DNA of 32,000 nucleotides from contig JAFGBS010000004.1 of assembly GCA_016933055.1 (NCBI GenBank), positions 240,001 through 272,000 on the forward strand, in the 5' to 3' direction. The notes under the pieces were generated by a model, which had not been told where the DNA came from, ran no database searches, and saw only the letters and a list, made by a program, of their open reading frames with translations. Positions within the stretch are counted from its first letter, which is position 1, and every line of letters begins with the position of its first letter. Shown here one piece after another: positions 1 through 8,134 of this stretch. This DNA is from Promethearchaeota archaeon. Lineage in GTDB: Archaea > Asgardarchaeota > Lokiarchaeia > Sigyniarchaeales > Promethearchaeaceae. A program made the position numbers and the translations under genes.

Positions 1-220
1 CACTCAAGGCGATAGCGTACTTTTTAATACCCGGGAGACACGCAACATTGCTAATTTGATCCAGAGTTTTATCTTGTTTGATCTTTCTGAGTAAAAATTC
101 ATTAGCATATACTCTAGCAGGGACAAGCATATCGAATTTCTGTATATCATCATGAACTTTTACGACTTTGCTTTGCTTTGAGATCTCATAGATATTATCG
201 TCAATTTTCTCAATTTGCAT
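1..220 (-). CDS. rtcB: RtcB tRNA-splicing/RNA ligase, 5' partial (runs off the left edge)
   Basis: Not in the ORF track. Manual translation from ATG at 220: MQIEKIDDNIYEISKQSKVVKVHDDIQKFDMLVPARVYANEFLLRKIKQDKTLDQISNVACLPGIKKYAIALS. This matches the archaeal RtcB N-terminus (M.VP.R.YA..LL.....D.TL.Q..NVA.LPGI.K..I). An archease gene lies about 1 kb away. Confidence 0.9.
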   Translation of the reverse strand, partial: MQIEKIDDNIYEISKQSKVVKVHDDIQKFDMLVPARVYANEFLLRKIKQDKTLDQISNVACLPGIKKYAIALS

Positions 221-436: not shown

Positions 437-1150
437 TTGATCCATTCTGTCTACGTCATCCATCAAGTTACTGGTATATGTGTCATCTATCGGAAATATG
501 GCACTATTGAGTTCAACGAAGATTTGATTGCGGGATTTCTCACTGCCTTGGGTGATTTCTCAAAAGAGGTTACTCGAGGAAAAGGTAATCTCAAAATCCT
601 TGATATGGTCGTTTATAACATTCATCTTGTGTTTAAAAATAGAATTTTGGTCGCAGCCGCCAGTGATAAGAAAGATTCAAAGGAAATTGCTCAAAATAAA
701 TTAGAGATTATTCTCAATCAATTTATTGATCGATATCTTCATATATTTGAAGATTGGAAGGGAGATGTTCGAATTTTTGAAGAATTCGACGAATACATCG
801 ATTATACACTCAGAAATGGGAAAGCTGCAGAAATACCGAGAACATTGCCATTATTACGCATATTCGATAAAGACTATAAAAAAGCACAAAAAGCTCTGAA
901 AAAAGGAGCTACATTAGGAGAAGATATACTTGAAGAAAGCGTATCAGTCGAATGGAAAAATAAAAGATTACCGGAACAAGTAATTAAACAAGGAATGTTA
1001 ACGGAAAATGAATATAAAATCGCTCATTTATGCGATGGATCTAAGGATATCAATGAAATTGCAGAAGAAATTGGAATCACCTTTGAATCAGCGCAATTAG
1101 TGATCGATAAACTTGATCGTTTAGATATGATTAAACTTGTTAGATTGTAA
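437..1150 (+). CDS. Longin-like domain protein with C-terminal winged HTH
   Basis: TTG start. N-terminal beta-beta-alpha pattern 'SVYVIHQVTGICVIYRKY...EDLIAGFLTALGDF' is typical of Asgard longin/sedlin-like domains. C-terminal 'LCDGSKDINEIAEEIGITFESAQLVIDKLDRLDMIK' is wHTH-like. Confidence 0.7.
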   Translation: MIHSVYVIHQVTGICVIYRKYGTIEFNEDLIAGFLTALGDFSKEVTRGKGNLKILDMVVYNIHLVFKNRILVAAASDKKDSKEIAQNKLEIILNQFIDRYLHIFEDWKGDVRIFEEFDEYIDYTLRNGKAAEIPRTLPLLRIFDKDYKKAQKALKKGATLGEDILEESVSVEWKNKRLPEQVIKQGMLTENEYKIAHLCDGSKDINEIAEEIGITFESAQLVIDKLDRLDMIKLVRL

Positions 1151-1195
1151 ATCTTCTTTCTCAATTTTTTAATTCAATAAAATCCATCCTTGTTT

Positions 1196-1633
1196 ATGCC
1201 TAACTTTTATGAATTCAAAGAACACCCCGCAGACATTCAAGTACATGCGGTGGGGAATACTTTAGAAGAAGCTATCGAGCAGGTAGTTATTGGAATGATG
1301 GATATAATGACTTCAGTAGAGACAGTCGATACTAAAATCTCAAAACAGATTAAGGCATCTGCCCCTGATCTTGAAATGTTAGTTGTGGATTATCTCACCG
1401 AATACTTGTTTTTTTTTGACACTGAACAATTACTGTTTTCGAAAGTTAAGGTATCACCTATTGAATTCGATGAACATACTCAAACATACCAACTTAATTC
1501 TGTTTCAAATGGAGAGTCTTTTGATTCGAGCCGCCATGAAATGAAAACAGAGATAAAAGCAGTAACCTACTCATTTCTCGAAATTCAACAAAAAAAAGAA
1601 AAATCTGAAATTTGGATTATATTTGATTTGTGA
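1196..1633 (+). CDS. Archease (RtcB cofactor)
   Basis: Motifs 'YEFKEHPADI', 'GNTLEEA' and 'TEIKAVTY', plus terminal 'IIFDL'. ATG at 1196 preferred over TTG at 1190. Confidence 0.93.
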   Translation: MPNFYEFKEHPADIQVHAVGNTLEEAIEQVVIGMMDIMTSVETVDTKISKQIKASAPDLEMLVVDYLTEYLFFFDTEQLLFSKVKVSPIEFDEHTQTYQLNSVSNGESFDSSRHEMKTEIKAVTYSFLEIQQKKEKSEIWIIFDL

Positions 1634-1639
1634 GGAACA

Positions 1640-2260
1640 TTATTCCATGGGTTTCGTAACAGCCTTTAAGTTTTCCCACATTGCATTTACTTCGTCGCGT
1701 TCTTTCTCAAGTTGTTCGCCCTTCTTTTGGAGATCCTTTTTCTTTCGATTGTATTCCCGTTCCAAATCTTTAAGTTTCATTTCCGTGGATGCAATTTTTT
1801 CTGCAGCAACCATTTTATTTTTTGCAGCTTCGATCTTTAAACCAGCATCTACTACTTTACGACGTATTTTGGCTATGTCTACCATGATATCTGCATATTC
1901 CATTCGTTTTTCTAATAACGACTTCTTTTGGATAGCTAAATCTTTCAACTTATCGTAATATTTTTCTTTTATATCAATTGCACTATCCAAATGACGGACA
2001 TATTCTTTGTTATCTTCGACTTCATCTTTGGAAATTCCAGAACGGTCTTCTCGGCTTAAAATCTCTAATTGTTTACTGAGATCTCGCAATTTTCTAACGA
2101 AAATCCCCATAAATCGTGTATAATCTCCATATTGATCCGCTAATTTTTTTTCTGCACTTGCAATTGATTTTTCACGATTACTCATTTGTTTCATCATATG
2201 AGCAATCTCAATTTCGAGTGCACTCAACATTTTCTCATCTTCATGAGTAACAATCGGCAT
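1640..2260 (-). CDS. All-helical coiled-coil protein, possibly BAR-like
   Basis: 206 aa, K/E-rich, almost no Pro or Gly, three long amphipathic segments. No recognisable catalytic motif. Confidence 0.6.
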   Translation of the reverse strand: MPIVTHEDEKMLSALEIEIAHMMKQMSNREKSIASAEKKLADQYGDYTRFMGIFVRKLRDLSKQLEILSREDRSGISKDEVEDNKEYVRHLDSAIDIKEKYYDKLKDLAIQKKSLLEKRMEYADIMVDIAKIRRKVVDAGLKIEAAKNKMVAAEKIASTEMKLKDLEREYNRKKKDLQKKGEQLEKERDEVNAMWENLKAVTKPME

Positions 2261-2384
2261 ACGGTTTTATCACATCTTTTATATTTTCATAAGGAAAAGA
2301 TCGGTATTATTTTTGTAATCTTTCACCTATACTTGATAACTATGACATAAAATAAAGTAATAAATACTTGTAAAAATTTTTGAG

Positions 2385-2780
2385 TTATTCACTAAGAGCT
2401 CTTCTCTTTTTGAATAACTCTTTCAATTCACCCATAATGGATGAACGCAAGGAAATTGGATTTGCGGGAGCTTGTGGTCGGGGGGCTGGGGCTCCTGGAG
2501 GTGGGGGGGGTGCTCCTGGTACTCCTGCTCCTCCAGATCTTGGAGCAGCCGTTCCCGGAGAGATGGTCGCACCCGAAGCGATTTGTGCTTCTAATGTAGC
2601 AACTTTGGATTGTAGATGATTTATCTGGGAGTTCATTTGAGAGATTATCGAATCCACTCTCTCAGGGATACTCATTATTACTATCATCATCTTCTCGATA
2701 ACTTCCGAAAGTCCCTCTACTTGTTCTCGAAGTGGAGCTTCTCTCATGGAGTTTAATACTGCGTTAAATTCATCTGCCAT
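2385..2780 (-). CDS. Small coiled-coil / polyproline / WH2-like motif protein
   Basis: ATG start. Heptad helix at residues about 17-68, GAPPPPPGAPAPRP at 89-102, C-terminal 'LRSSIMGELKELFKKRR'. Confidence 0.75.
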   Translation of the reverse strand: MADEFNAVLNSMREAPLREQVEGLSEVIEKMMIVIMSIPERVDSIISQMNSQINHLQSKVATLEAQIASGATISPGTAAPRSGGAGVPGAPPPPPGAPAPRPQAPANPISLRSSIMGELKELFKKRRALSE

Positions 2781-2919
2781 TTAAAAACATCCTGTATTGT
2801 TGTCGTTTTCCTTTTTTATATTATCCAAAATTAAATTATATCTAAACTATATGTATATTATATTGATTTATCTTTAATAAGTTAGCAAAGCCAAAGAAAC
2901 TAAAAAGGGGGTTATATCA

Positions 2920-3879
2920 ATTTTTTTATTCAAGATTTCCTTCATTTCTACAGATGTTCGGGATAAAATTTTATTCTTTGATCTAATACGTGCAAATCTG
3001 GAGTTATCTAATTTCAATAATACTTCCTACTCCGACACCATCGGAGTTAACATCTCGGTAAAACATCTCTACGATCAAAACGAACAGATTGCAAAGATCA
3101 TCATCTGGGATATATCACCTCAGAAATTCTTTCAGTGGGTTCGCCCATTATTCTTTAATGGCTCTATAGGGGCAATCGTTCTCCATTCAGATAATTCTGC
3201 TGAAGGGGTATCTCATACTGTAAAATTAATTCGGGAATTTCGAAAACATGCCTTTTTAAAATATCTGGTTATCCTCACAAAACCCTTCGAGATTGACATT
3301 CCTATTAAAGAATTGGTAGCAGAAGCACAGGATCTCGGATTCGAAATCAGGTACTTTGATATAGATGAATCTTATAACTCCGAAAATCTACCTTCTGAGC
3401 AAAATTGTGCGGAAATTTATCAAAATCTGAGGAAATTTTATGAAACTATTATCCTAGATCTATTCTCAGATGCAGTGAGTAAAATTCCTAAGAATGCCTA
3501 TAATATTACTGAATTTCGGGATATCTATTTCGACACTTTAGAAGAATATGATAATTCTTTAAAAAAAATGTATGAAATTTTAGATAGGTTAGGATTTGCT
3601 CATGATCATCGCAATATATATGTTGATATTGAAGAAGGCTTATTTTCTATTAATATTTTCACTGGTGCTTGCTATTTTCATTATCCGCATTCTTGTACTC
3701 AGCAGACAAAATATTTATGTTTGGAACCTGCAATTAAAGATTTTTCAGGATGGTCAAACATTATGTATTTACCGAAGACTTTTATGCTCTCGATCGCCAA
3801 AGCTTTCTATCTTCTTGAACACGATTTCGATAATATTGTGCTTGACCAATTGGAAGAAATAAAAAAGAAATTAATGTAA
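2920..3879 (+). CDS. Degenerate Rab/Ras-like small GTPase domain plus unknown C-terminal domain; non-canonical start (ATT 2920 or ATA 2914)
   Basis: The frame of ORF 3313..3879 is open back to 2881. The upstream part reads FLFKISFISTDVRDKILFFDLI...SYSDTIGVNISVKHLYDQNEQIAKIIIWDISPQKFFQWVRPLFFNGSIGAIVL, colinear with Rab FKI...TIGV...IWDTAGQ..F....YYRGA.G. A GGGGG SD-like run sits at 2907-2911. Confidence 0.75.
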   Translation: MFLFKISFISTDVRDKILFFDLIRANLELSNFNNTSYSDTIGVNISVKHLYDQNEQIAKIIIWDISPQKFFQWVRPLFFNGSIGAIVLHSDNSAEGVSHTVKLIREFRKHAFLKYLVILTKPFEIDIPIKELVAEAQDLGFEIRYFDIDESYNSENLPSEQNCAEIYQNLRKFYETIILDLFSDAVSKIPKNAYNITEFRDIYFDTLEEYDNSLKKMYEILDRLGFAHDHRNIYVDIEEGLFSINIFTGACYFHYPHSCTQQTKYLCLEPAIKDFSGWSNIMYLPKTFMLSIAKAFYLLEHDFDNIVLDQLEEIKKKLM

Positions 3880-5253
3880 TCTATCTATTAAATCAAGTAC
3901 TTTGGCTGCTTGATCCCGAATATGGGAAATGCTGTCTCCACTTGAAGAAAAAATTGATTTCGCAGTACCATGTATCGATGACAGAATAATCTTATTCGGA
4001 ATTGCCACAATTCCCATTAAAAGAAGAAAAACTTCTTGAATCAGCTGTGTTTTGACTCTTATTTGCTCTTGTTTCTCTTCCTCAGAGATTTTGCTTTTTT
4101 CATTTCCATCGCCGAAAATTCTATCAACTTCCATTTCTTCCCAAATATTTGATTTTAATCCATCAAAATTCACCCCTAAGTCTAATAGTGCTTTCTTAAT
4201 CCCTTCATAGAAAAGTTGAATCATTTCTTCTGGTGGAATTTCATTAAATTTGTCTAAAATCTCAGGCGGAGCTATATCAGTAAGTAATTCTATAATGGTA
4301 GCTTTGTAATCTTGCACAATATCTAGAGGAAGGGTTAATTCGGTCACTTTGATGGAATTATTATATAAATGTCCGATAAGTTTGGCAATAGCTTCCTTTT
4401 CACATGTTTTCTCAATTATTCTTCCGTTTTCGTTGAATATATGAACCAAGAGAAATCCTATGATTCTTATTACATCCTTTTCATAATTTTTGAAATATTC
4501 CATAAATTCATAAGAACTCATTTCCATTTTTTCTTCTATTACTATAACTAATTGCTTTTTGATTGCATCCAATGGTCTGGATAAAATATCATCAGCATTA
4601 TCGAAATCAGAATCCATAAGAAAAGGTCTTTTCAAAGCTGAATCTAGCTGCTGTATGTCTTGATTCAATTCTGACTTATGTACAATATGACATTTGAGTT
4701 CCAAAACATCATCTCCCCTACAAAAGCACTTCGTTTCTTGCATCAAAATTCGATAATCATTTTTTTTCAATTCCAAAATGAAATTAGCTGTTTCTTCAAG
4801 CATACCGACTAAACCAGTTGCATAAAAACTTTCTTCTGGTTGAATTTTATTACAATCAACAGAATCTAACGGAGAAGAACCATACCCTCCACATATAGGG
4901 CATTTAGAGATCCGAAAAATTAGATCGGGATATTTTTCTCCTTCTCGAGGGATTTTCTGTAATTCATATTCATCTAATTTGGTTCCAAAAATAACGAACC
5001 AGATTATATCCAATGTTTCCATTACCCTAACTGGATCATTAGGAAACATACGTAAGACAGTCATTTGTCGACGGGCAGATTCAAAAGTTCCATTTAATCC
5101 AATCATCTTTAATATCTGAGAGGCTTGTGTCTCGTTTCCCGTTACTTCTACGATTTCTTTATACATTTCTCGATACAGAAGCGTGAAAAATAATAAATTT
5201 ACACTGCGACCAAAGAATTTTGCAGTGCGCCCTACTAAAAATCGAAATACCAT
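3871..5253 (-). CDS. TRAPPC3/Bet3-V4R fold protein with long helical C-terminal extension
   Basis: 'LFFTLLYREMYKEI...ASQILKMIG...IIWFVIFG' resembles Bet3 (LFTLTYG..V.QL...V.K.L..MG). V4R-type 'CPICGG' and 'ETKCFCRGDD' are present. Confidence 0.7.
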   Translation of the reverse strand: MVFRFLVGRTAKFFGRSVNLLFFTLLYREMYKEIVEVTGNETQASQILKMIGLNGTFESARRQMTVLRMFPNDPVRVMETLDIIWFVIFGTKLDEYELQKIPREGEKYPDLIFRISKCPICGGYGSSPLDSVDCNKIQPEESFYATGLVGMLEETANFILELKKNDYRILMQETKCFCRGDDVLELKCHIVHKSELNQDIQQLDSALKRPFLMDSDFDNADDILSRPLDAIKKQLVIVIEEKMEMSSYEFMEYFKNYEKDVIRIIGFLLVHIFNENGRIIEKTCEKEAIAKLIGHLYNNSIKVTELTLPLDIVQDYKATIIELLTDIAPPEILDKFNEIPPEEMIQLFYEGIKKALLDLGVNFDGLKSNIWEEMEVDRIFGDGNEKSKISEEEKQEQIRVKTQLIQEVFLLLMGIVAIPNKIILSSIHGTAKSIFSSSGDSISHIRDQAAKVLDLIDRLH

Positions 5254-5257
5254 TGGT

Positions 5258-5734
5258 TTATTCCTCCCGTTCTTTAATTTGGTAGGTATGAATACAAGAA
5301 AGATCCCCCAAAGCTACTGATTTTATGACAGACGATCTCTCTATGTGATGTCCATATTTTTCACAGATTTTCGAAATCATAGACACAACAACCCAACAAG
5401 GTGAAATTGAAAGATCTTCACGCTTATATTTACATAAAGGGCATTTTTTATCTTCCACAATCACTTCATGAGATTCATTCTTGATGTCAATTTTGCTCTC
5501 AAAAATATTCGTGTAAATATTTTCTATCAACTCTTCAACAGAAGAACCAAAGAATTTTTTCTCTACTGCAATAGTTTCAGCAATATTTTTACCCATCCGT
5601 TGTAATTTCTGTTGGATATCCGAATCACCTATCCCTCTACTCATTAAAAACCGCAGGAAATGGTATAGATTATTTCTCATTTGATTCATAGTTGCTGTCT
5701 TACCAGCAAGCTCTATTCGTGTATAATTTGGCAT
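5258..5734 (-). CDS. TRAPPC3/Bet3-like (V4R fold) single-domain protein
   Basis: 'IQQKLQRMGKNIAETI' parallels Bet3 'QLDKMGFNIGVRL'. Cys residues in 'KCPLC', 'SPCW' and 'GDLSC'. 158 aa. Confidence 0.72.
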   Translation of the reverse strand: MPNYTRIELAGKTATMNQMRNNLYHFLRFLMSRGIGDSDIQQKLQRMGKNIAETIAVEKKFFGSSVEELIENIYTNIFESKIDIKNESHEVIVEDKKCPLCKYKREDLSISPCWVVVSMISKICEKYGHHIERSSVIKSVALGDLSCIHTYQIKEREE

Positions 5735-5777: not shown

Positions 5778-6596
5778 TTAAAGTTTTAGTGTTGTCTTTA
5801 TCGGTCCAGAGATAGGGACTGCTATCGCAATTCCTACACATACCTGTAATAAATTAAATGGCATCTCCGAATACGCAGTAGCAATTCCAATAATAAAAGT
5901 ACCATAGATCAGATACCCGATAATCATGAAGATACCACCAACAAACATAGCTATAATTTTCAATGAAATTCGGGAATCAACGAATACATATATCAAAATT
6001 ATACTAAGCAAATTTATTCCCGCGATACCGGACCAGAATATGTACGTAAATTTTATATTAAACACATATAAATCTTTAAATCCGCTAATTTCAGCTGGTC
6101 CGATGTAAAAAATAAACCCTACTGAGAGAATTATTATGGTAATTATAATAGCAATGAAAATTACTGTAACTGTTTCTCTGGTTTTACTATTCCGTTTCTC
6201 TTGAACATTATGTGCTATCTGCATTAGTTTTTGATATAAAAATCCGACAATTAGCGCCTCTACTCCTTTTATAACAAGAGTACCAAGTGCATAATGAGTG
6301 TAAGTTAAAAAAATATCCGCTAAAGCAGCTCCAACGCCGCTGGATATCGCACCAATGTACGGTCCAAATAAAATGGCGGTAAGATACACCATTGATTCCC
6401 CGATATTAAAAAAACCATTAGACAAAGGGAGATATACTGTAAAAACAACGGTCACTACTGTATTTAAACCGATCATTATTGCTGTAATCGCTATATGCAA
6501 AATAATCTGTTTCGTAAATCCTTTTGCGGGAAATACTACTCTCTGTTGGTTCTCATTTGTATTCTGATCTTTATTTGCGTTTTTCGAGTTTTCCAT
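5778..6596 (-). CDS. ECF transporter S component
   Basis: 'GFFNIGESMVYLTAILFGPYIG...GVGAALADI' and 'GTLVIKG' are S-component motifs; multiple TM helices. Start is either ATG near 6596 or GTG at 6605. Confidence 0.85.
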   Translation of the reverse strand: MENSKNANKDQNTNENQQRVVFPAKGFTKQIILHIAITAIMIGLNTVVTVVFTVYLPLSNGFFNIGESMVYLTAILFGPYIGAISSGVGAALADIFLTYTHYALGTLVIKGVEALIVGFLYQKLMQIAHNVQEKRNSKTRETVTVIFIAIIITIIILSVGFIFYIGPAEISGFKDLYVFNIKFTYIFWSGIAGINLLSIILIYVFVDSRISLKIIAMFVGGIFMIIGYLIYGTFIIGIATAYSEMPFNLLQVCVGIAIAVPISGPIKTTLKL

Positions 6597-6681
6597 CGAG
6601 ATCACATAAAAGAGTACCTAGAGCAATTTGATTTTTTTGGTAAGACACATATTAATAATGAAAAACTAGCCAAATGTAAAC

Positions 6682-7692
6682 ATGCGGATGCTTATGAAAA
6701 ATAAACAAAGTACTATTGAACAAAAGATTAGTGCATTAATTAATGAATTGGTAGAGAGTACAACACAAAATCCTAAAGATAATTCCAAAATCGATTCTAT
6801 TTTAGATAAACTTCATACTATCAATACTTGGCAGATCATAGATCCTATCAAATCGGTCCTAGATATACCTGAATATCCGATCCGTGTAAAGCAAGATCTT
6901 TTGGCATTGGTAGGAAAAGTTCAGGACCCGCGAGCTGTCTCCCTACTGGGTTCATATCTAGAGAGTTCGAATCCAAAACTACGTAATATGGCGATAAAAA
7001 CATTAAGTTTTATAAAAAATCCTAAAGTTACTTCTTATCTGCTTAACGTGGTTACAAATGAAGAAGATAAATGGACAAAGATCTTCGCAATTCATGGGTT
7101 AACAAAAAACACCTCACCTAAAGTGGTTCAACCGTTAGTTCAATTATTAGGTGATACTGAGGAAGAAGTTCGAAAAGAAGCGATTAATGCATTGAATAAA
7201 ATAAAACTGGATATCGTTGATGATATATTAATCGATGCTCTCAATTCCCAAAATAGATATATTCAATTAGGGTCCGTCAGTTTATTAGGAATGAGAAGAG
7301 TTAAAAAATCGACACAATCCTTAATAGAATTGCTCGGAAATGAAGACCTTCGACTAAATCTTCTTACATGCAATTCACTATCCCAAATTTCAGATTCGGA
7401 ATCAATAAAATCTCTTTTAGAATATGCATCTAACGAGGAAACAAATACTAACCCTTACATCTTATGCATCCAAAAAATGGATAAGAAAATCATTCCCTCA
7501 TTAATTGATCTGTACACGCAAGCCAAAGATGATCAACTCATTTCCTTAATTGAATATATTTTATCTAAACGGGGATTTGAAACACATGAAGAGATTATAA
7601 ATCGAAAATTACACGAGAAGGATCTGGAAGTAAAAGAAAAATTACAAAATTTATTGAATAGAATAGATATCACATCAAAAAAGCAGGAATAA
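6682..7692 (+). CDS. HEAT-repeat (PBS lyase HEAT-like) protein
   Basis: Repeated 'L...L.D....VR..A..AL..I'-type units, e.g. 'LVQLLGDTEEEVRKEAINALNKI'. Confidence 0.85.
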   Translation: MRMLMKNKQSTIEQKISALINELVESTTQNPKDNSKIDSILDKLHTINTWQIIDPIKSVLDIPEYPIRVKQDLLALVGKVQDPRAVSLLGSYLESSNPKLRNMAIKTLSFIKNPKVTSYLLNVVTNEEDKWTKIFAIHGLTKNTSPKVVQPLVQLLGDTEEEVRKEAINALNKIKLDIVDDILIDALNSQNRYIQLGSVSLLGMRRVKKSTQSLIELLGNEDLRLNLLTCNSLSQISDSESIKSLLEYASNEETNTNPYILCIQKMDKKIIPSLIDLYTQAKDDQLISLIEYILSKRGFETHEEIINRKLHEKDLEVKEKLQNLLNRIDITSKKQE

Positions 7693-8134
7693 GAGCAACA
7701 ATGGCCCATTTTTGACTATAGATTACCATATACTCCAAAAATTTTCGAATTTCTTCAATTCTCTCTGGTTCCTTGATTAAATATTCACAAAACACTTTTG
7801 GTCCAATAGCAGCGAGATATCCATTAAGATTGTTTTCCCTTTTTATTAACAACCATAAGGGTGCATCATTTTCTTTGTTGCTAGCTAATATTAATATCAT
7901 AGGATTATTCGTCCAATCTTTATCATTAGGATCAGTTATTTTCTGAATGGATTTCTCCACGGAATATGCTTTGTTTAGTTTTATTTCTTTGATAAGATCA
8001 TCAAAATAGTTGCGTCTGATTAAGATATATTCTCCAAGTACGGCATTTCCGTCATAAAGGTTGAAAGAATGACCCGAGCCAGAATTAGAACGGATTTTTA
8101 CTGTCCATGATTTTTCTGGGAATTTTTTACTCAT
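7670..8134 (-). CDS. Hypothetical protein
   Basis: 154-aa ATG ORF filling the gap, with globular composition. No family recognised. Confidence 0.65.
   Translation of the reverse strand: MSKKFPEKSWTVKIRSNSGSGHSFNLYDGNAVLGEYILIRRNYFDDLIKEIKLNKAYSVEKSIQKITDPNDKDWTNNPMILILASNKENDAPLWLLIKRENNLNGYLAAIGPKVFCEYLIKEPERIEEIRKFLEYMVIYSQKWAIVALIPAFLM

What the first reader, a model, noticed from the sequence alone, without database searches (positions are those of the whole stretch)
437..5734. Candidate proto-trafficking/actin locus: longin, BAR-like, WH2-polyPro, pseudo-Rab and two TRAPPC3-like genes in 5.3 kb
Six of seven consecutive genes resemble parts of eukaryotic membrane-trafficking or actin machinery. 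In eukaryotes TRAPP is built from Bet3/TRAPPC3-fold plus longin subunits and acts as a GEF for Rab1/Rab11, while BAR proteins partner WAVE/WASP-type actin regulators. Individual Asgard TRAPPC3-like, longin and small-GTPase homologues are known. Their clustering with a WH2-like protein may mark an undescribed system. The genes lie on mixed strands, so this is not one operon, and chance clustering in an ESP-rich genome is a real alternative.
Basis: inference. Interest (0 to 1): 0.72.

Follow-up and report, generated by a model that had tools for sequence, protein, structure and literature searches.

The report
Paired TRAPPC3-like genes, not one locus
The supposed six-gene "proto-trafficking" cluster of this Lokiarchaeal genome is a recent, genus-level juxtaposition of unrelated units, but it contains a conserved two-gene operon for two different TRAPPC3/Bet3-fold proteins that are predicted to form a heterodimer, like the core pairs of the eukaryotic TRAPP complex.

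Summary
All seven ORFs exist at the stated coordinates. Four of the six fold resemblances hold:
- g1 (437-1150) is a longin domain plus winged helix.
- g5 (2920-3879) is a Ras/Roc-like pseudo-GTPase without a P-loop. It probably starts at ATT.
- g6 (3871-5253) and g7 (5258-5734) both have the TRAPPC3/Bet3 fold.

The other two do not hold. "BAR-like" (g3) could not be tested, and "WH2" (g4) is not supported.

The six genes lie together only in the same genus. In 60 related genomes the stretch splits into three units:
- A. rtcB, g1, archease, g3 and g4 form a neighbourhood kept across the order. One family has a 6-kb housekeeping insert in it, and most of the window's own family has lost it.
- B. 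g5 is genus-specific.
- C. g7→g6 is a tight operon in every locus examined in four families, and elsewhere it is never next to unit A.

The g6-g7 complex prediction scored 0.92 (best control 0.00), and conserved residues concentrate at the interface. The MK-D1 orthologue of g7 is the published "MKD1-TRAPPC3". Its partner gene (DSAG12_02085) appears in no paper I could search.

g4 and g1 belong to pan-Asgard families of unknown function. The scan holds notes on this window only; no look-alike stretch in other genomes was on record.

Verdict: not one system. The heterodimer operon is a new variant of a known kind.

The parts
2..220 (-). 5' end of rtcB (tRNA-splicing ligase); the gene runs off the window. 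It is divergently transcribed from g1.
   Evidence: 59% identical over 73 aa (E 6e-28) to the N-terminus of the L045 protein, which scores Pfam RtcB 7.7e-174.
437..1150 (+). g1: 237-aa protein with an N-terminal longin domain (1-135), a linker and a C-terminal winged helix-turn-helix (about 172-236). TTG start.
   Evidence: AF2 pLDDT 81 with beta-beta-alpha-beta-beta-beta-alpha-alpha topology. VIA Z 14.0 to Sec22 and 13.7 to VAMP7. Foldseek top hits are AP sigma, Sec22b, Bet5 and LAMTOR. Pfam gives only weak hits: Longin E 0.07 and HTH_47 E 0.0018. Orthologues occur order-wide, and a ~205-aa form is pan-Asgard.
1190..1633 (+). g2: archease, the RtcB cofactor; a housekeeping gene.
   Evidence: Pfam Archease 7.3e-40.
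1640..2260 (-). g3: 206-aa all-helical/coiled-coil protein of no known family. It is single-copy and restricted to this order.
   Evidence: No family in Pfam or NCBIfam. PDB profile hits are designed coiled coils only. Found in 57/61 relatives, but in 26/28 order genomes against 1 weak hit in 123 other Asgard genomes. All relatives are 'hypothetical'.
2385..2780 (-). g4: 131-aa protein with an N-terminal coiled-coil helix, a Pro/Gly/Ala-rich linker and a conserved basic amphipathic C-terminal helix (core ELK). It belongs to a pan-Asgard family.
   Evidence: Alignments A5. Found in 113/151 Asgard genomes. Adjacent to g3 in families f2, f3, f4 and the own genus. No WH2 hit.
2920..3879 (+). g5: 319-aa pseudo-GTPase, a Ras/Roc-like G domain without P-loop, DxxG or NKxD, plus a C-terminal domain of about 150 aa with no known family. 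Probable ATT start at 2920; the frame is open from 2881. Genus-specific.
   Evidence: the G001 orthologue has TTG at the aligned codon. Pfam Roc 29.6 and Ras 24.9 bits. The only true orthologue is in G001, at 70% identity. dN is 0.22 with synonymous sites saturated.
3871..5253 (-). g6: 460-aa large TRAPPC3/Bet3-fold protein. The fold spans residues 19-195, followed by a helical C-terminal domain (225-460) that ends in a long hairpin. It is the downstream gene of the g7-g6 operon.
   Evidence: AF2 pLDDT 72. VIA Z 15.6 to 7yh2_A and 15.3 to 2cfh_A. Foldseek top 31 hits are Bet3/TRAPPC3. Found in 27/28 order genomes and 0/123 other Asgard genomes at 1e-5.
5258..5734 (-). g7: 158-aa small TRAPPC3-like protein with a four-Cys site (C98, C101, C113, C147). 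It is the upstream gene of the operon, 4 nt before g6, and the orthologue of MK-D1 WP_147663132.1.
   Evidence: Profile A1 against PDB 7YH3/7YH2: 4.5e-8 and 9.9e-8, with all four Cys aligned. Found in 58/61 relatives. Accession look-up. Published as MKD1-TRAPPC3 in PMC10933270.

Best explanation
The 5.3-kb stretch is not one system. It is a genus-level juxtaposition of three units that are inherited independently.

Unit A is a conserved Lokiarchaeal neighbourhood around the RNA ligase genes. rtcB lies divergent from g1 (longin-wHTH), followed by archease, then the pair g3 (coiled coil) and g4 (coiled coil, flexible linker, C-terminal basic amphipathic helix).

Unit B is g5, a young, lineage-specific pseudo-GTPase under purifying selection.

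Unit C is the only part with clear evidence of a shared function. It is a tightly coupled operon, g7 then g6, that encodes two different TRAPPC3/Bet3-fold proteins. I propose that they form an obligate heterodimer through their two N-terminal helices. This is the same mode as the Thorarchaeal TRAPPC3 homodimer and the eukaryotic Bet3-Trs33 and Bet3-Trs31 pairs. g7 would carry the Zn-stabilised ligand-cavity fold, and g6 would add a helical C-terminal arm for further assembly.

Shown here: the folds, the synteny, the operon structure and the conservation of the interface. Inferred: actual binding, Zn or ligand binding, and any link to a GTPase.
For: Synteny:
- tblastn of all window proteins on +-10 kb around 20 g7 homologues finds g7->g6 adjacent and co-directional in all 20 loci (four families). 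g1-g5 are present only in same-genus G001.
- Gaps between g7 and g6 are mostly -17 to +16 nt.
- Genome-wide positions of g1, g3, g4 and g5 homologues and gene maps of 20 further loci show rtcB/g1/archease/g3/g4 together in f2, f4 and the own genus. In f3 they are split by CutA1, nucleotidyltransferase, radical-SAM, GNAT and Pelota genes.
- The neighbours of g7-g6 differ by family: a PLP enzyme, thioredoxin, AAA/TPR, XPD helicase.

Folds.

Heterodimer:
- The complex score was 0.92 (runs 0.92, 0.91, 0.92) against a best control of 0.00. The tool states that this mark was reached by 58 of 80 solved complexes and 2 of 110 mismatched pairs. The runs agree in at least 94% of contacts, and partner pLDDT is at least 87.
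- Predicted interface residues are more conserved than the rest of the domain. For g6 the values are 0.62 vs 0.49, with 7 of 9 invariant residues at the interface. For g7 they are 0.58 vs 0.49, with 6 of 12 invariant residues there.

g5 is a live gene: a 316-codon frame is intact in both genomes, with dN 0.22 and dS saturated.
Against: - The complex prediction may pass from memory of solved Bet3-family dimers, and my own shallow 17-row alignments were used, so it shows likeness and not binding.
- Homodimers of each protein were not tested, and Tran et al. modelled the MK-D1 g7 orthologue as a homodimer.
- hhalign did not detect g6-g7 sequence homology (probability 1.6%), so the g6 fold call rests on a predicted model with pLDDT 72.
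- Within the genus the juxtaposition is improbable by chance, so a young functional association of g5 with its neighbours cannot be excluded.
- Unit A could be inherited gene order rather than a functional unit.
Confidence: 0.7

Rival explanations
1. The six proteins form one proto-trafficking/actin system: a TRAPP-like assembly (two Bet3-like subunits plus a longin) acting on the pseudo-Rab, coupled to a BAR-like protein and a WAVE/WH2-like actin regulator.
For: - All four fold types of a TRAPP-GTPase module are present within 5.3 kb.
- The arrangement is kept in the second genome of the genus.
- A Heimdall longin-TRAPPC3 fusion is reported in PMC10933270, so longin-TRAPPC3 co-operation in Asgard is plausible.
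Against: - There is no linkage outside the genus: g7-g6 is unlinked to g1/g3/g4 in f2, f3, f4 and the rest of f1.
- g5 has no orthologue elsewhere. It lacks P-loop, DxxG and NKxD, so it cannot be a GEF substrate in the usual sense.
- g1 sits with rtcB and archease, and outside the order its orthologues sit beside a membrane protein, not beside TRAPPC3-like genes.
- The WH2 and BAR assignments are unsupported.
- The genes lie in at least four transcription units.
Confidence: 0.06
2. g1 is a longin-sensor/winged-helix transcription regulator of the divergently transcribed rtcB (and archease). This would be analogous in layout to bacterial rtcR-rtcBA. g3-g4 would be unrelated passengers.
For: - g1 and rtcB are direct neighbours in all 16 loci of f2, f3, f4 and the own genus where both were captured, and they are divergent in most of them.
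- g1 ends in a wHTH, and its orthologues give weak TrmB/Crp/HTH_47 hits.
- Archease follows g1 after 39 nt.
Against: - In 20 loci of other Asgard families the ~205-aa orthologue is never next to rtcB or archease. In 17 of them it is convergently paired with a multi-pass membrane protein.
- Most of the window's own family lacks a g1 orthologue yet keeps rtcB-independent g3 and g4.
- Winged helices also serve protein-protein contacts (ESCRT-II, NPRL2-type proteins; my own knowledge).
- No operator was sought.
Confidence: 0.2
3. g4 is a membrane-tethered or partner-tethered coiled-coil adaptor. Its N-terminal helix oligomerises, in this order possibly with g3. The flexible linker spaces the two ends. 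The conserved C-terminal basic amphipathic helix binds membrane, like the MinD and FtsA targeting helices, or docks on a conserved partner, possibly in a small-GTPase context.
For: - The architecture and the C-terminal motif are conserved across 113/151 Asgard genomes, while the linker varies in length and composition.
- The motif alternates hydrophobic and Lys/Arg residues with helical periodicity (read).
- g3-g4 adjacency holds in f2, f3, f4 and the own genus.
- Ras-like genes lie within 6 kb of g4 in 10 of 20 non-Lokiarchaeal loci. The comparison sets gave 0/20, 3/20 and 0/20. In this window g4 abuts the pseudo-GTPase g5.
Against: - No structure, binding test or complex prediction was run for g4.
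- The 10 loci come from only about two or three independent lineages.
- The immediate neighbours are metabolic genes (phosphoglucomutase, a cDPG-synthetase-like gene, molybdopterin oxidoreductase).
- In closed genomes of the own family g3 and g4 are far apart.
Confidence: 0.25
4. g4 is an Asgard WH2/polyproline actin-assembly factor (a 'mini-WAVE') that recruits profilin-actin.
For: - In the Lokiarchaeal order the linker holds PPPPP-type tracts, followed by a short helix with basic residues.
- There is a weak profile hit of the N-terminal helix to BRICK1 of the WAVE complex (E 0.0096).
- Actin nucleation machinery is still unknown in Asgard (PMC9433394).
Against: - There is no Pfam WH2 match at E<=10 in g4 or five homologues.
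- The invariant core is ELK followed by hydrophobic and basic residues, not LLxxIxxGxxLKK[TV].
- Pro-richness is absent from Thor-, Odin- and other Asgard homologues, so it is not a family trait.
- The BRICK1 hit sits among dozens of generic coiled-coil hits with better E-values.
Confidence: 0.07

Closest known systems
MKD1-TRAPPC3 (WP_147663132.1) and Thorarchaeota TRAPPC3 (PDB 7YH2, 7YH3), Tran et al. 2024, Commun Biol 7:273 (PMC10933270)
   Same: g7 is the orthologue of MKD1-TRAPPC3. It shares the fold, the four-Cys Zn site and dimerisation through the N-terminal helices with Thor-TRAPPC3.
   Different: The paper treats these proteins as homodimers and, in the passages I read, says nothing of the adjacent gene. 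Here g7 always comes with a second, highly diverged TRAPPC3-fold protein of 460-560 aa (g6; MK-D1 WP_147663133.1). The predicted partner is this paralogue. g6 was not found outside this order at 1e-5.
Eukaryotic TRAPP core heterodimers Bet3-Trs33 (TRAPPC3-C6) and Bet3-Trs31 (TRAPPC3-C5), e.g. PDB 2CFH, 2C0J, 2J3R
   Same: Two paralogous Bet3-fold subunits pair through their N-terminal helices. The g6 domain matches Bet3 at VIA Z 15.3, rmsd 2.7 over 156 residues.
   Different: There is no Pfam TRAPP match. No conserved linkage to longin subunits or to a Rab was found, and GEF activity is unknown. g6 carries an extra helical domain of about 235 aa that eukaryotic subunits lack. g7 keeps a Zn site, which mouse TRAPPC3 has replaced with a hydrogen bond.
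Prokaryotic V4R domain proteins (PoxR, MopR, MJ1460), Podar et al. 2008 (PMC2253512)
   Same: Same superfamily fold, and a Cys-based Zn site in g7.
   Different: g6 matches PoxR less well than TRAPPC3 (Z 10.5 vs 15.6). Neither g6 nor g7 reaches Pfam V4R. The genome's one canonical V4R gene is elsewhere, at C17:521346-521531.
Longin domains of Sec22b, VAMP7 and TRAPPC4, and Asgard longin proteins (e.g. PDB 8YQG)
   Same: The N-terminal 135 residues of g1 have longin topology and match at Z 12-14.
   Different: g1 is fused to a winged helix rather than a SNARE motif, DENN domain or GTPase domain. It scores below the Pfam Longin cut-off (13.5 vs 26.2 bits). Its function is unknown.
Ras-superfamily pseudo-GTPases; Asgard small GTPase expansion
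   Same: The G-domain core of g5 (switch I to beta-5) is homologous to Ras/Roc, and the genome holds about 54 Ras-family matches.
   Different: G1, G3 and G4 are all degenerate. There is no C-terminal Cys for prenylation. g5 has a unique C-terminal domain of about 150 aa and probably a non-canonical ATT start. It was found in one genus only.

Membership tests
TRAPPC3/Bet3-V4R superfamily (g7) | Sequence homology to a member with a solved structure | tested here: met
   Profile A1 against PDB: 7YH3 4.5e-8 and 7YH2 9.9e-8 over 120 positions. Eukaryotic TRAPPC3 reaches only E about 0.6.
TRAPPC3/Bet3-V4R superfamily (g6) | Two-layer alpha/beta fold: two N-terminal helices, a four-stranded sheet and two further helices | tested here: met
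   AF2 model residues 19-195 (pLDDT 75-90). VIA Z 15.6 to 7yh2_A and 15.3 to 2cfh_A. Foldseek top 31 hits are all Bet3/TRAPPC3. This rests on a predicted model.
TRAPPC3/Bet3-V4R superfamily (g6, g7) | Pfam TRAPP (PF04051) or V4R (PF02830) above the gathering score | tested here: not met
   No hit at E<=0.1 for either protein. A genome-wide PF04051 search found nothing, but its controls did not ring either. PF02830 hits only C17:521346-521531.
TRAPPC3/Bet3-V4R superfamily (g7) | Four-Cys Zn site as in Thor-TRAPPC3 and PoxR | tested here: met
   C98, C101, C113 and C147 align with the four Cys of 7YH3. C101 and C147 are invariant and C113 is at least 90% conserved. Metal binding itself was not tested.
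TRAPP core (Bet3-family heterodimer) | Dimerisation of two Bet3-fold subunits through the N-terminal helices | tested here: met
   By prediction only: score 0.92 against a best control of 0.00, with the interface on g6 11-63 and g7 1-59. The interface is enriched in conserved residues.
TRAPP complex | Association with longin subunits (Bet5/Trs23/Trs20 type) and GEF activity on a Rab | not testable with these tools
   No conserved gene linkage of g7-g6 to any longin or GTPase gene in four families.
Longin domain (g1) | beta-beta-alpha-beta-beta-beta-alpha-alpha topology, with solved longins as the closest structures | tested here: met
   DSSP of the AF2 model. Z 14.0 to Sec22 and 13.7 to VAMP7, with 116-125 residues aligned. 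Roadblocks reach Z 10.9 or less with 105 residues or fewer.
Longin domain (g1) | Pfam Longin above the gathering score | tested here: not met
   13.5 bits against a cut-off of 26.2, E 0.071.
Ras-superfamily small GTPase / Rab (g5) | G-domain homology | tested here: met
   Roc 29.6 bits (cut-off 27) and Ras 24.9 bits (cut-off 21.6), profile positions 25-109.
Ras-superfamily small GTPase / Rab (g5) | G1 P-loop GxxxxGK[ST], G3 DxxG, G4 NKxD | tested here: not met
   The aligned stretches read STDVRDKI, DISP and LTKP in the window, and STETRDKV and LSDP in G001. g5 is therefore a pseudo-GTPase, not a working Rab.
Ras-superfamily small GTPase / Rab (g5) | C-terminal Cys prenylation motif of Rabs | tested here: not met
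   The protein ends in KKKLM, with no Cys in the last 50 residues.
WH2 domain (g4) | Pfam WH2 match, or an amphipathic helix followed by LKK[TV] | tested here: not met
   No WH2 family among hits at E<=10 for g4 and five homologues. The conserved core is ELK-x-[LF][FL]-x-[RK][RM][RK].
WH2 domain (g4) | Binding of monomeric actin | not testable with these tools
BAR/IMD domain (g3) | Three-helix crescent dimer; match to a BAR family profile or structure | tested here: inconclusive
   No BAR-type Pfam hit at E<=0.1. PDB profile hits are designed coiled coils. Helix breaks in alignment A4 suggest three long helices, which is not specific to BAR domains.
Archease (g2) | Pfam Archease above the gathering score | tested here: met
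   136.9 bits, E 7.3e-40, full length.

The most novel reading that the evidence does not exclude
The g7-g6 heterodimer is the Lokiarchaeal counterpart of the Bet3-Trs33/Trs31 subcomplexes. On this reading it would be an independently or ancestrally duplicated TRAPPC3 pair that nucleates a larger TRAPP-like particle with some of the genome's unlinked longin proteins, using g6's C-terminal helical arm. The particle would regulate one of the roughly 50 small GTPases. TRAPP-type paralogue heterodimerisation would then predate eukaryotes, and a defined archaeal pair would be available for biochemical study.
Probability: 0.12. Interest if true: 0.8.

Novelty: new variant of a known kind. Interest (0 to 1): 0.42.

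Why it matters
Asgard homologues of TRAPPC3, longins and small GTPases are already published. How they work together is unknown, because the genes rarely sit in operons (PMC10933270). This follow-up removes one attractive but false lead: a six-gene 'proto-trafficking/actin locus'. It replaces that lead with a narrower, testable one.

Throughout one Lokiarchaeal order, including the cultured Promethearchaeum syntrophicum MK-D1 (DSAG12_02084 and DSAG12_02085), the TRAPPC3-like protein is encoded with an undescribed large TRAPPC3-fold partner. The two are predicted to heterodimerise as the eukaryotic TRAPP core paralogues do. Confirmation would give the first archaeal example of the paralogue pairing that builds TRAPP, and a bait for finding its partners.

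Two side results may also be useful. g4 and the longin-wHTH protein g1 both belong to pan-Asgard families with no assigned function.

Tried and rejected
Sequence and family searches that gave nothing usable:
- Pfam and NCBIfam scans of g3, g4, g6 and g7 gave only sub-threshold coiled-coil noise.
- Whole-profile PDB searches of g6, g1 and g3 found nothing meaningful.
- hhalign of the g6 family against the g7 family gave probability 1.6%, matching only around the CxxC stretch. The g6 fold call therefore rests on the model.

ESM Atlas:
- For g3 and for the g6 C-terminal domain the best feature scores were 0.77 and 0.76, and no model was held.
- The structure rows for g4 had TM 0.54 or below and covered unrelated coiled coils.
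- The atlas fold search of the g6 model returned only orthologues at full length. The C-terminal hairpin (385-460) matches generic helical hairpins only.

Ideas tested and dropped:
- g5 is not related to the 591-aa gene that follows g4 in family f3 (BLASTP E 0.49). Only its G-domain core matches the ~600-aa GTPases of sister genera.
- I considered that the gene convergent with g1 in other Asgard lineages might be a diverged g3. It is a multi-pass membrane protein whose homologue in the own genome is unlinked.
- The ~440-aa gene between g4 and a Ras gene in Odin-like genomes is a cyclic-2,3-diphosphoglycerate-synthetase-like enzyme, not a GTPase regulator.

Full report
**What is there**

The window is G000:C6:240001-272000 of a 3.76-Mb, 36-contig, low-GC genome. 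Its relatives include the closed genome of Promethearchaeum syntrophicum MK-D1 (G010), so it is a Lokiarchaeal (Promethearchaeota) genome.

| Gene | Coordinates | Strand | Length |
|---|---|---|---|
| g1 | 437-1150 | + | 237 aa |
| g2 | 1190-1633 | + | 147 aa |
| g3 | 1640-2260 | - | 206 aa |
| g4 | 2385-2780 | - | 131 aa |
| g5 | open frame 2881-3879 | + | 319 aa from 2920 |
| g6 | 3871-5253 | - | 460 aa |
| g7 | 5258-5734 | - | 158 aa |

Left of g1, on the minus strand at 2-220, lies the start of rtcB. It is 59% identical to the N-terminus of a protein that scores Pfam RtcB 7.7e-174.

**Gene by gene**

- **g2** is archease (Pfam 7e-40), the cofactor of RtcB.
- **g1** has only weak Pfam hits (Longin E 0.07, HTH_47 E 0.0018).
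  - An AF2 model built on 18 orthologues (pLDDT 81) shows beta-beta-alpha-beta-beta-beta-alpha-alpha followed by a winged helix.
  - Solved longins are its best matches: Sec22 Z 14.0, VAMP7 Z 13.7, synbindin Z 12.3, Bet5 Z 11.2. Roadblocks rank lower, at Z 10.9 or less with shorter alignments.
- **g5** has no ATG, GTG or TTG before 3313.
  - The same-genus orthologue has TTG where the window has ATT (2920), and the two proteins are 70% identical over 316 codons. dN is 0.22 with synonymous sites saturated, so this is a live gene with a probable ATT start.
  - It passes the Pfam Roc and Ras cut-offs, but only from profile position 25 onward.
  - The P-loop, DxxG and NKxD positions read STDVRDKI, DISP and LTKP. 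It is a pseudo-GTPase with a unique C-terminal domain of about 150 aa.
- **g7**: a profile of 17 orthologues hits the crystal structures of Thorarchaeota TRAPPC3 (7YH3 at 4.5e-8), with all four Zn-binding Cys aligned.
- **g6** has no sequence hit anywhere.
  - Residues 19-195 of its AF2 model (pLDDT 72 overall, 75-90 in this domain) match TRAPPC3/Bet3 at Z 15.6 (7yh2_A, rmsd 2.7, 150 residues) and Z 15.3 (2cfh_A). PoxR/V4R follows at Z 10.5.
  - The remaining 235 residues are helical and end in a long hairpin of no specific kind.
- **g3** is a three-segment helical protein with no relatives of known function. The BAR idea could not be tested.
- **g4** is a coiled-coil helix, a low-complexity linker and a strongly conserved C-terminal helix. 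No WH2 model matches it or five homologues even at E<=10.

**Is it one locus?**

I located homologues of g1, g3, g4, g5 and g7 in 60 related genomes of four families. I also mapped the genes around 40 loci. The six genes are together only in the one other genome of the genus (L015). Elsewhere three units separate.

- **Unit C.** g7->g6 is adjacent and co-directional in all 20 loci. The gaps are mostly between -17 and +16 nt.
  - Its neighbours change from family to family: a PLP enzyme with PadR, thioredoxin, an AAA ATPase plus TPR protein, XPD helicase, EamA transporter.
  - It lies on other contigs than g1/g3/g4, or 280 kb away in G021.
- **Unit A.** rtcB, g1, archease, g3 and g4 are direct neighbours in f2, f4 and the own genus.
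  - In f3 a 6-kb block lies between g1 and g3-g4. It holds CutA1, a nucleotidyltransferase, two radical-SAM genes, GNAT and Pelota.
  - In most of the window's own family, including three closed genomes, g3 and g4 are hundreds of kb apart and no g1 orthologue was found.
- **Unit B.** g5 has no orthologue outside the genus. Its other matches are G-domain paralogues at E 1e-12 or weaker.

The genome has about 54 Ras-family matches and about 13 g1-like longin matches. A GTPase-like gene and a longin gene both this close to the single g7-g6 locus is therefore unlikely a priori. My estimate is on the order of 0.1%. The hypothesis was formed after seeing the arrangement, however, and selection has not kept the arrangement beyond one genus.

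**The TRAPPC3 pair**

The profile of g6 is found in 27 of 28 genomes of the order and in none of 123 other Asgard genomes at 1e-5. The profile of g7 is strong in the same 27 genomes and only weak elsewhere.

A complex prediction with both family alignments gave a score of 0.92 in three runs, against 0.00 for three controls. The tool states that this mark was reached by 58 of 80 solved complexes and 2 of 110 mismatched pairs. The runs agree in at least 94% of contacts, and partner pLDDT is at least 87. The tool also warns that pairs resembling solved complexes can pass from memory, and Bet3-family dimers are solved.

The interface is formed by the two N-terminal helices of each protein. This is the mode that Tran et al. 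describe for the Thor-TRAPPC3 homodimer and for TRAPPC3/C6. As an independent check, predicted interface residues are more conserved than the rest of the domain:

| Protein | Interface conservation | Rest of domain | Permutation p | Invariant residues at the interface |
|---|---|---|---|---|
| g6 | 0.62 | 0.49 | 0.0006 | 7 of 9 |
| g7 | 0.58 | 0.49 | 0.017 | 6 of 12 |

The permutation ignores the contiguity of residues, so these p values are optimistic.

The MK-D1 orthologue of g7 is WP_147663132.1, the 'MKD1-TRAPPC3' that Tran et al. modelled as a homodimer. The next gene, WP_147663133.1 / DSAG12_02085, is the g6 orthologue and is annotated as hypothetical. No paper in the searchable library mentions it.

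A different Asgard family (f10) has its own tandem pair of TRAPPC3-like genes. This suggests that paralogue pairing recurs.

**How it most likely works**

- Shown: the folds, the operon, the order-wide co-inheritance and the conserved interface.
- Inferred: g7 and g6 form a heterodimer of the Bet3-Trs33/Trs31 type.
- g7 keeps the Zn-stabilised cavity fold, which in Bet3 and PoxR binds hydrophobic ligands.
- g6 has lost the Cys site in many lineages. It adds a helical arm that could mediate higher-order assembly.
- Whether the dimer meets longin proteins or a GTPase is open. Gene order gives no support for it.

**The other genes**

- **g1.** Its first 140 residues identify a ~205-aa longin-wHTH orthologue in 124 of 151 Asgard genomes.
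  - Outside this order the orthologue is convergently paired with a conserved multi-pass membrane protein in 17 of 20 loci and is never next to rtcB.
  - That membrane protein is unlinked in the Lokiarchaeal order.
  - The g1-rtcB pairing is consistent with g1 being a local regulator. It may equally be inherited gene order.
- **g4.** The family is pan-Asgard (113 of 151 genomes).
  - The N-terminal helix and the C-terminal motif are conserved. The motif is basic-x-x-[LM]-x-[GST]-ELK-x-[LF][FL]-x-[RK][RM][RK].
  - The polyproline tracts are not conserved; they occur only in the Lokiarchaeal order.
  - This argues against a WAVE-like profilin-actin recruiter. It favours a tethering helix that binds membrane or a conserved partner.
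  - Ras-like genes lie within 6 kb of g4 in 10 of 20 non-Lokiarchaeal loci, against 0/20, 3/20 and 0/20 in three comparison sets. These loci stem from only two or three lineages, and the direct neighbours are metabolic genes.

**Comparison with what is known, and verdict**

Asgard longins, small GTPases and TRAPPC3/V4R proteins are published (PMC10933270, PMC2253512). That paper also notes that MK-D1 GTPase genes are generally not in operons with roadblock, longin or TRAPPC3 genes.

The six-gene 'locus' is not a conserved system. What is new is the obligate operon partner of the Lokiarchaeal TRAPPC3-like protein and the predicted heterodimer. I class this as a new variant of a known kind, with moderate interest. 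No expression data could be obtained.

Noticed in passing
window 2385-2780 (g4); loci L065-L084: g4 belongs to a pan-Asgard family (113/151 genomes) of 130-190-aa proteins. They share an N-terminal coiled-coil helix, a variable low-complexity linker and a conserved C-terminal helix with an invariant ELK core. Ras-like GTPase genes lie within 6 kb in 10 of 20 non-Lokiarchaeal loci, against 0-3 of 20 in three comparison sets. No function is known.
   Followed up: partly
window 437-1150 (g1); loci L085-L104: The ~205-aa longin-wHTH orthologue of g1 is found in 124/151 Asgard genomes. Outside the Lokiarchaeal order it is convergently paired with a conserved multi-pass membrane protein (alignment A6) in 17 of 20 loci. 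In this genome that membrane protein is unlinked, at G000:C17:229403-230164.
   Followed up: partly
G000:C17:521346-521531 and C17:522211-522702 (own genome, outside the window): The genome's only canonical V4R-domain gene (Pfam V4R 4e-9, 164-aa frame) lies about 700 nt from a full Ras-family GTPase gene on the same strand.
   Followed up: no
G066:C3:166753-167115 and 167412-167678; G133:C69:1965-2252 and 2557-2820: Another Asgard family (f10) has its own tandem pair of small TRAPPC3-like genes (about 180-200 aa each). Paralogue pairs of this fold therefore recur in Asgard archaea.
   Followed up: no
window 2881-2920: g5 probably starts at ATT (2920). The aligned codon in the same-genus genome is TTG, and no ATG, GTG or TTG exists in frame before 3313. 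Automatic gene callers would truncate the protein to 188 aa and miss the G domain.
   Followed up: yes
loci L029, L031, L032 (family f4): In family f4 the g7-g6 pair is preceded, co-directionally, by an AAA ATPase with a PRS2-type N-domain and by a TPR protein. This may be a four-gene operon specific to that family.
   Followed up: no
g1 orthologues in family f3 (e.g. G023:C56:15693-16421, G031:C94:59681-60400, G040:C58:18026-18739): Several f3 genomes show one to three in-frame stop codons inside the match to g1, although the open frames are about 250 aa. I did not check whether this reflects read-through of upstream sequence, assembly errors or real disruption.
   Followed up: no
window 5778-8134: Right of g7 lie an ECF-transporter S component (Pfam 3e-23), a HEAT-repeat protein (HEAT_2 4e-28) and a 154-aa protein of no family. 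The S component stays within about 2-9 kb of g7-g6 in most genomes of the window's own family, but not in the other families.
   Followed up: partly
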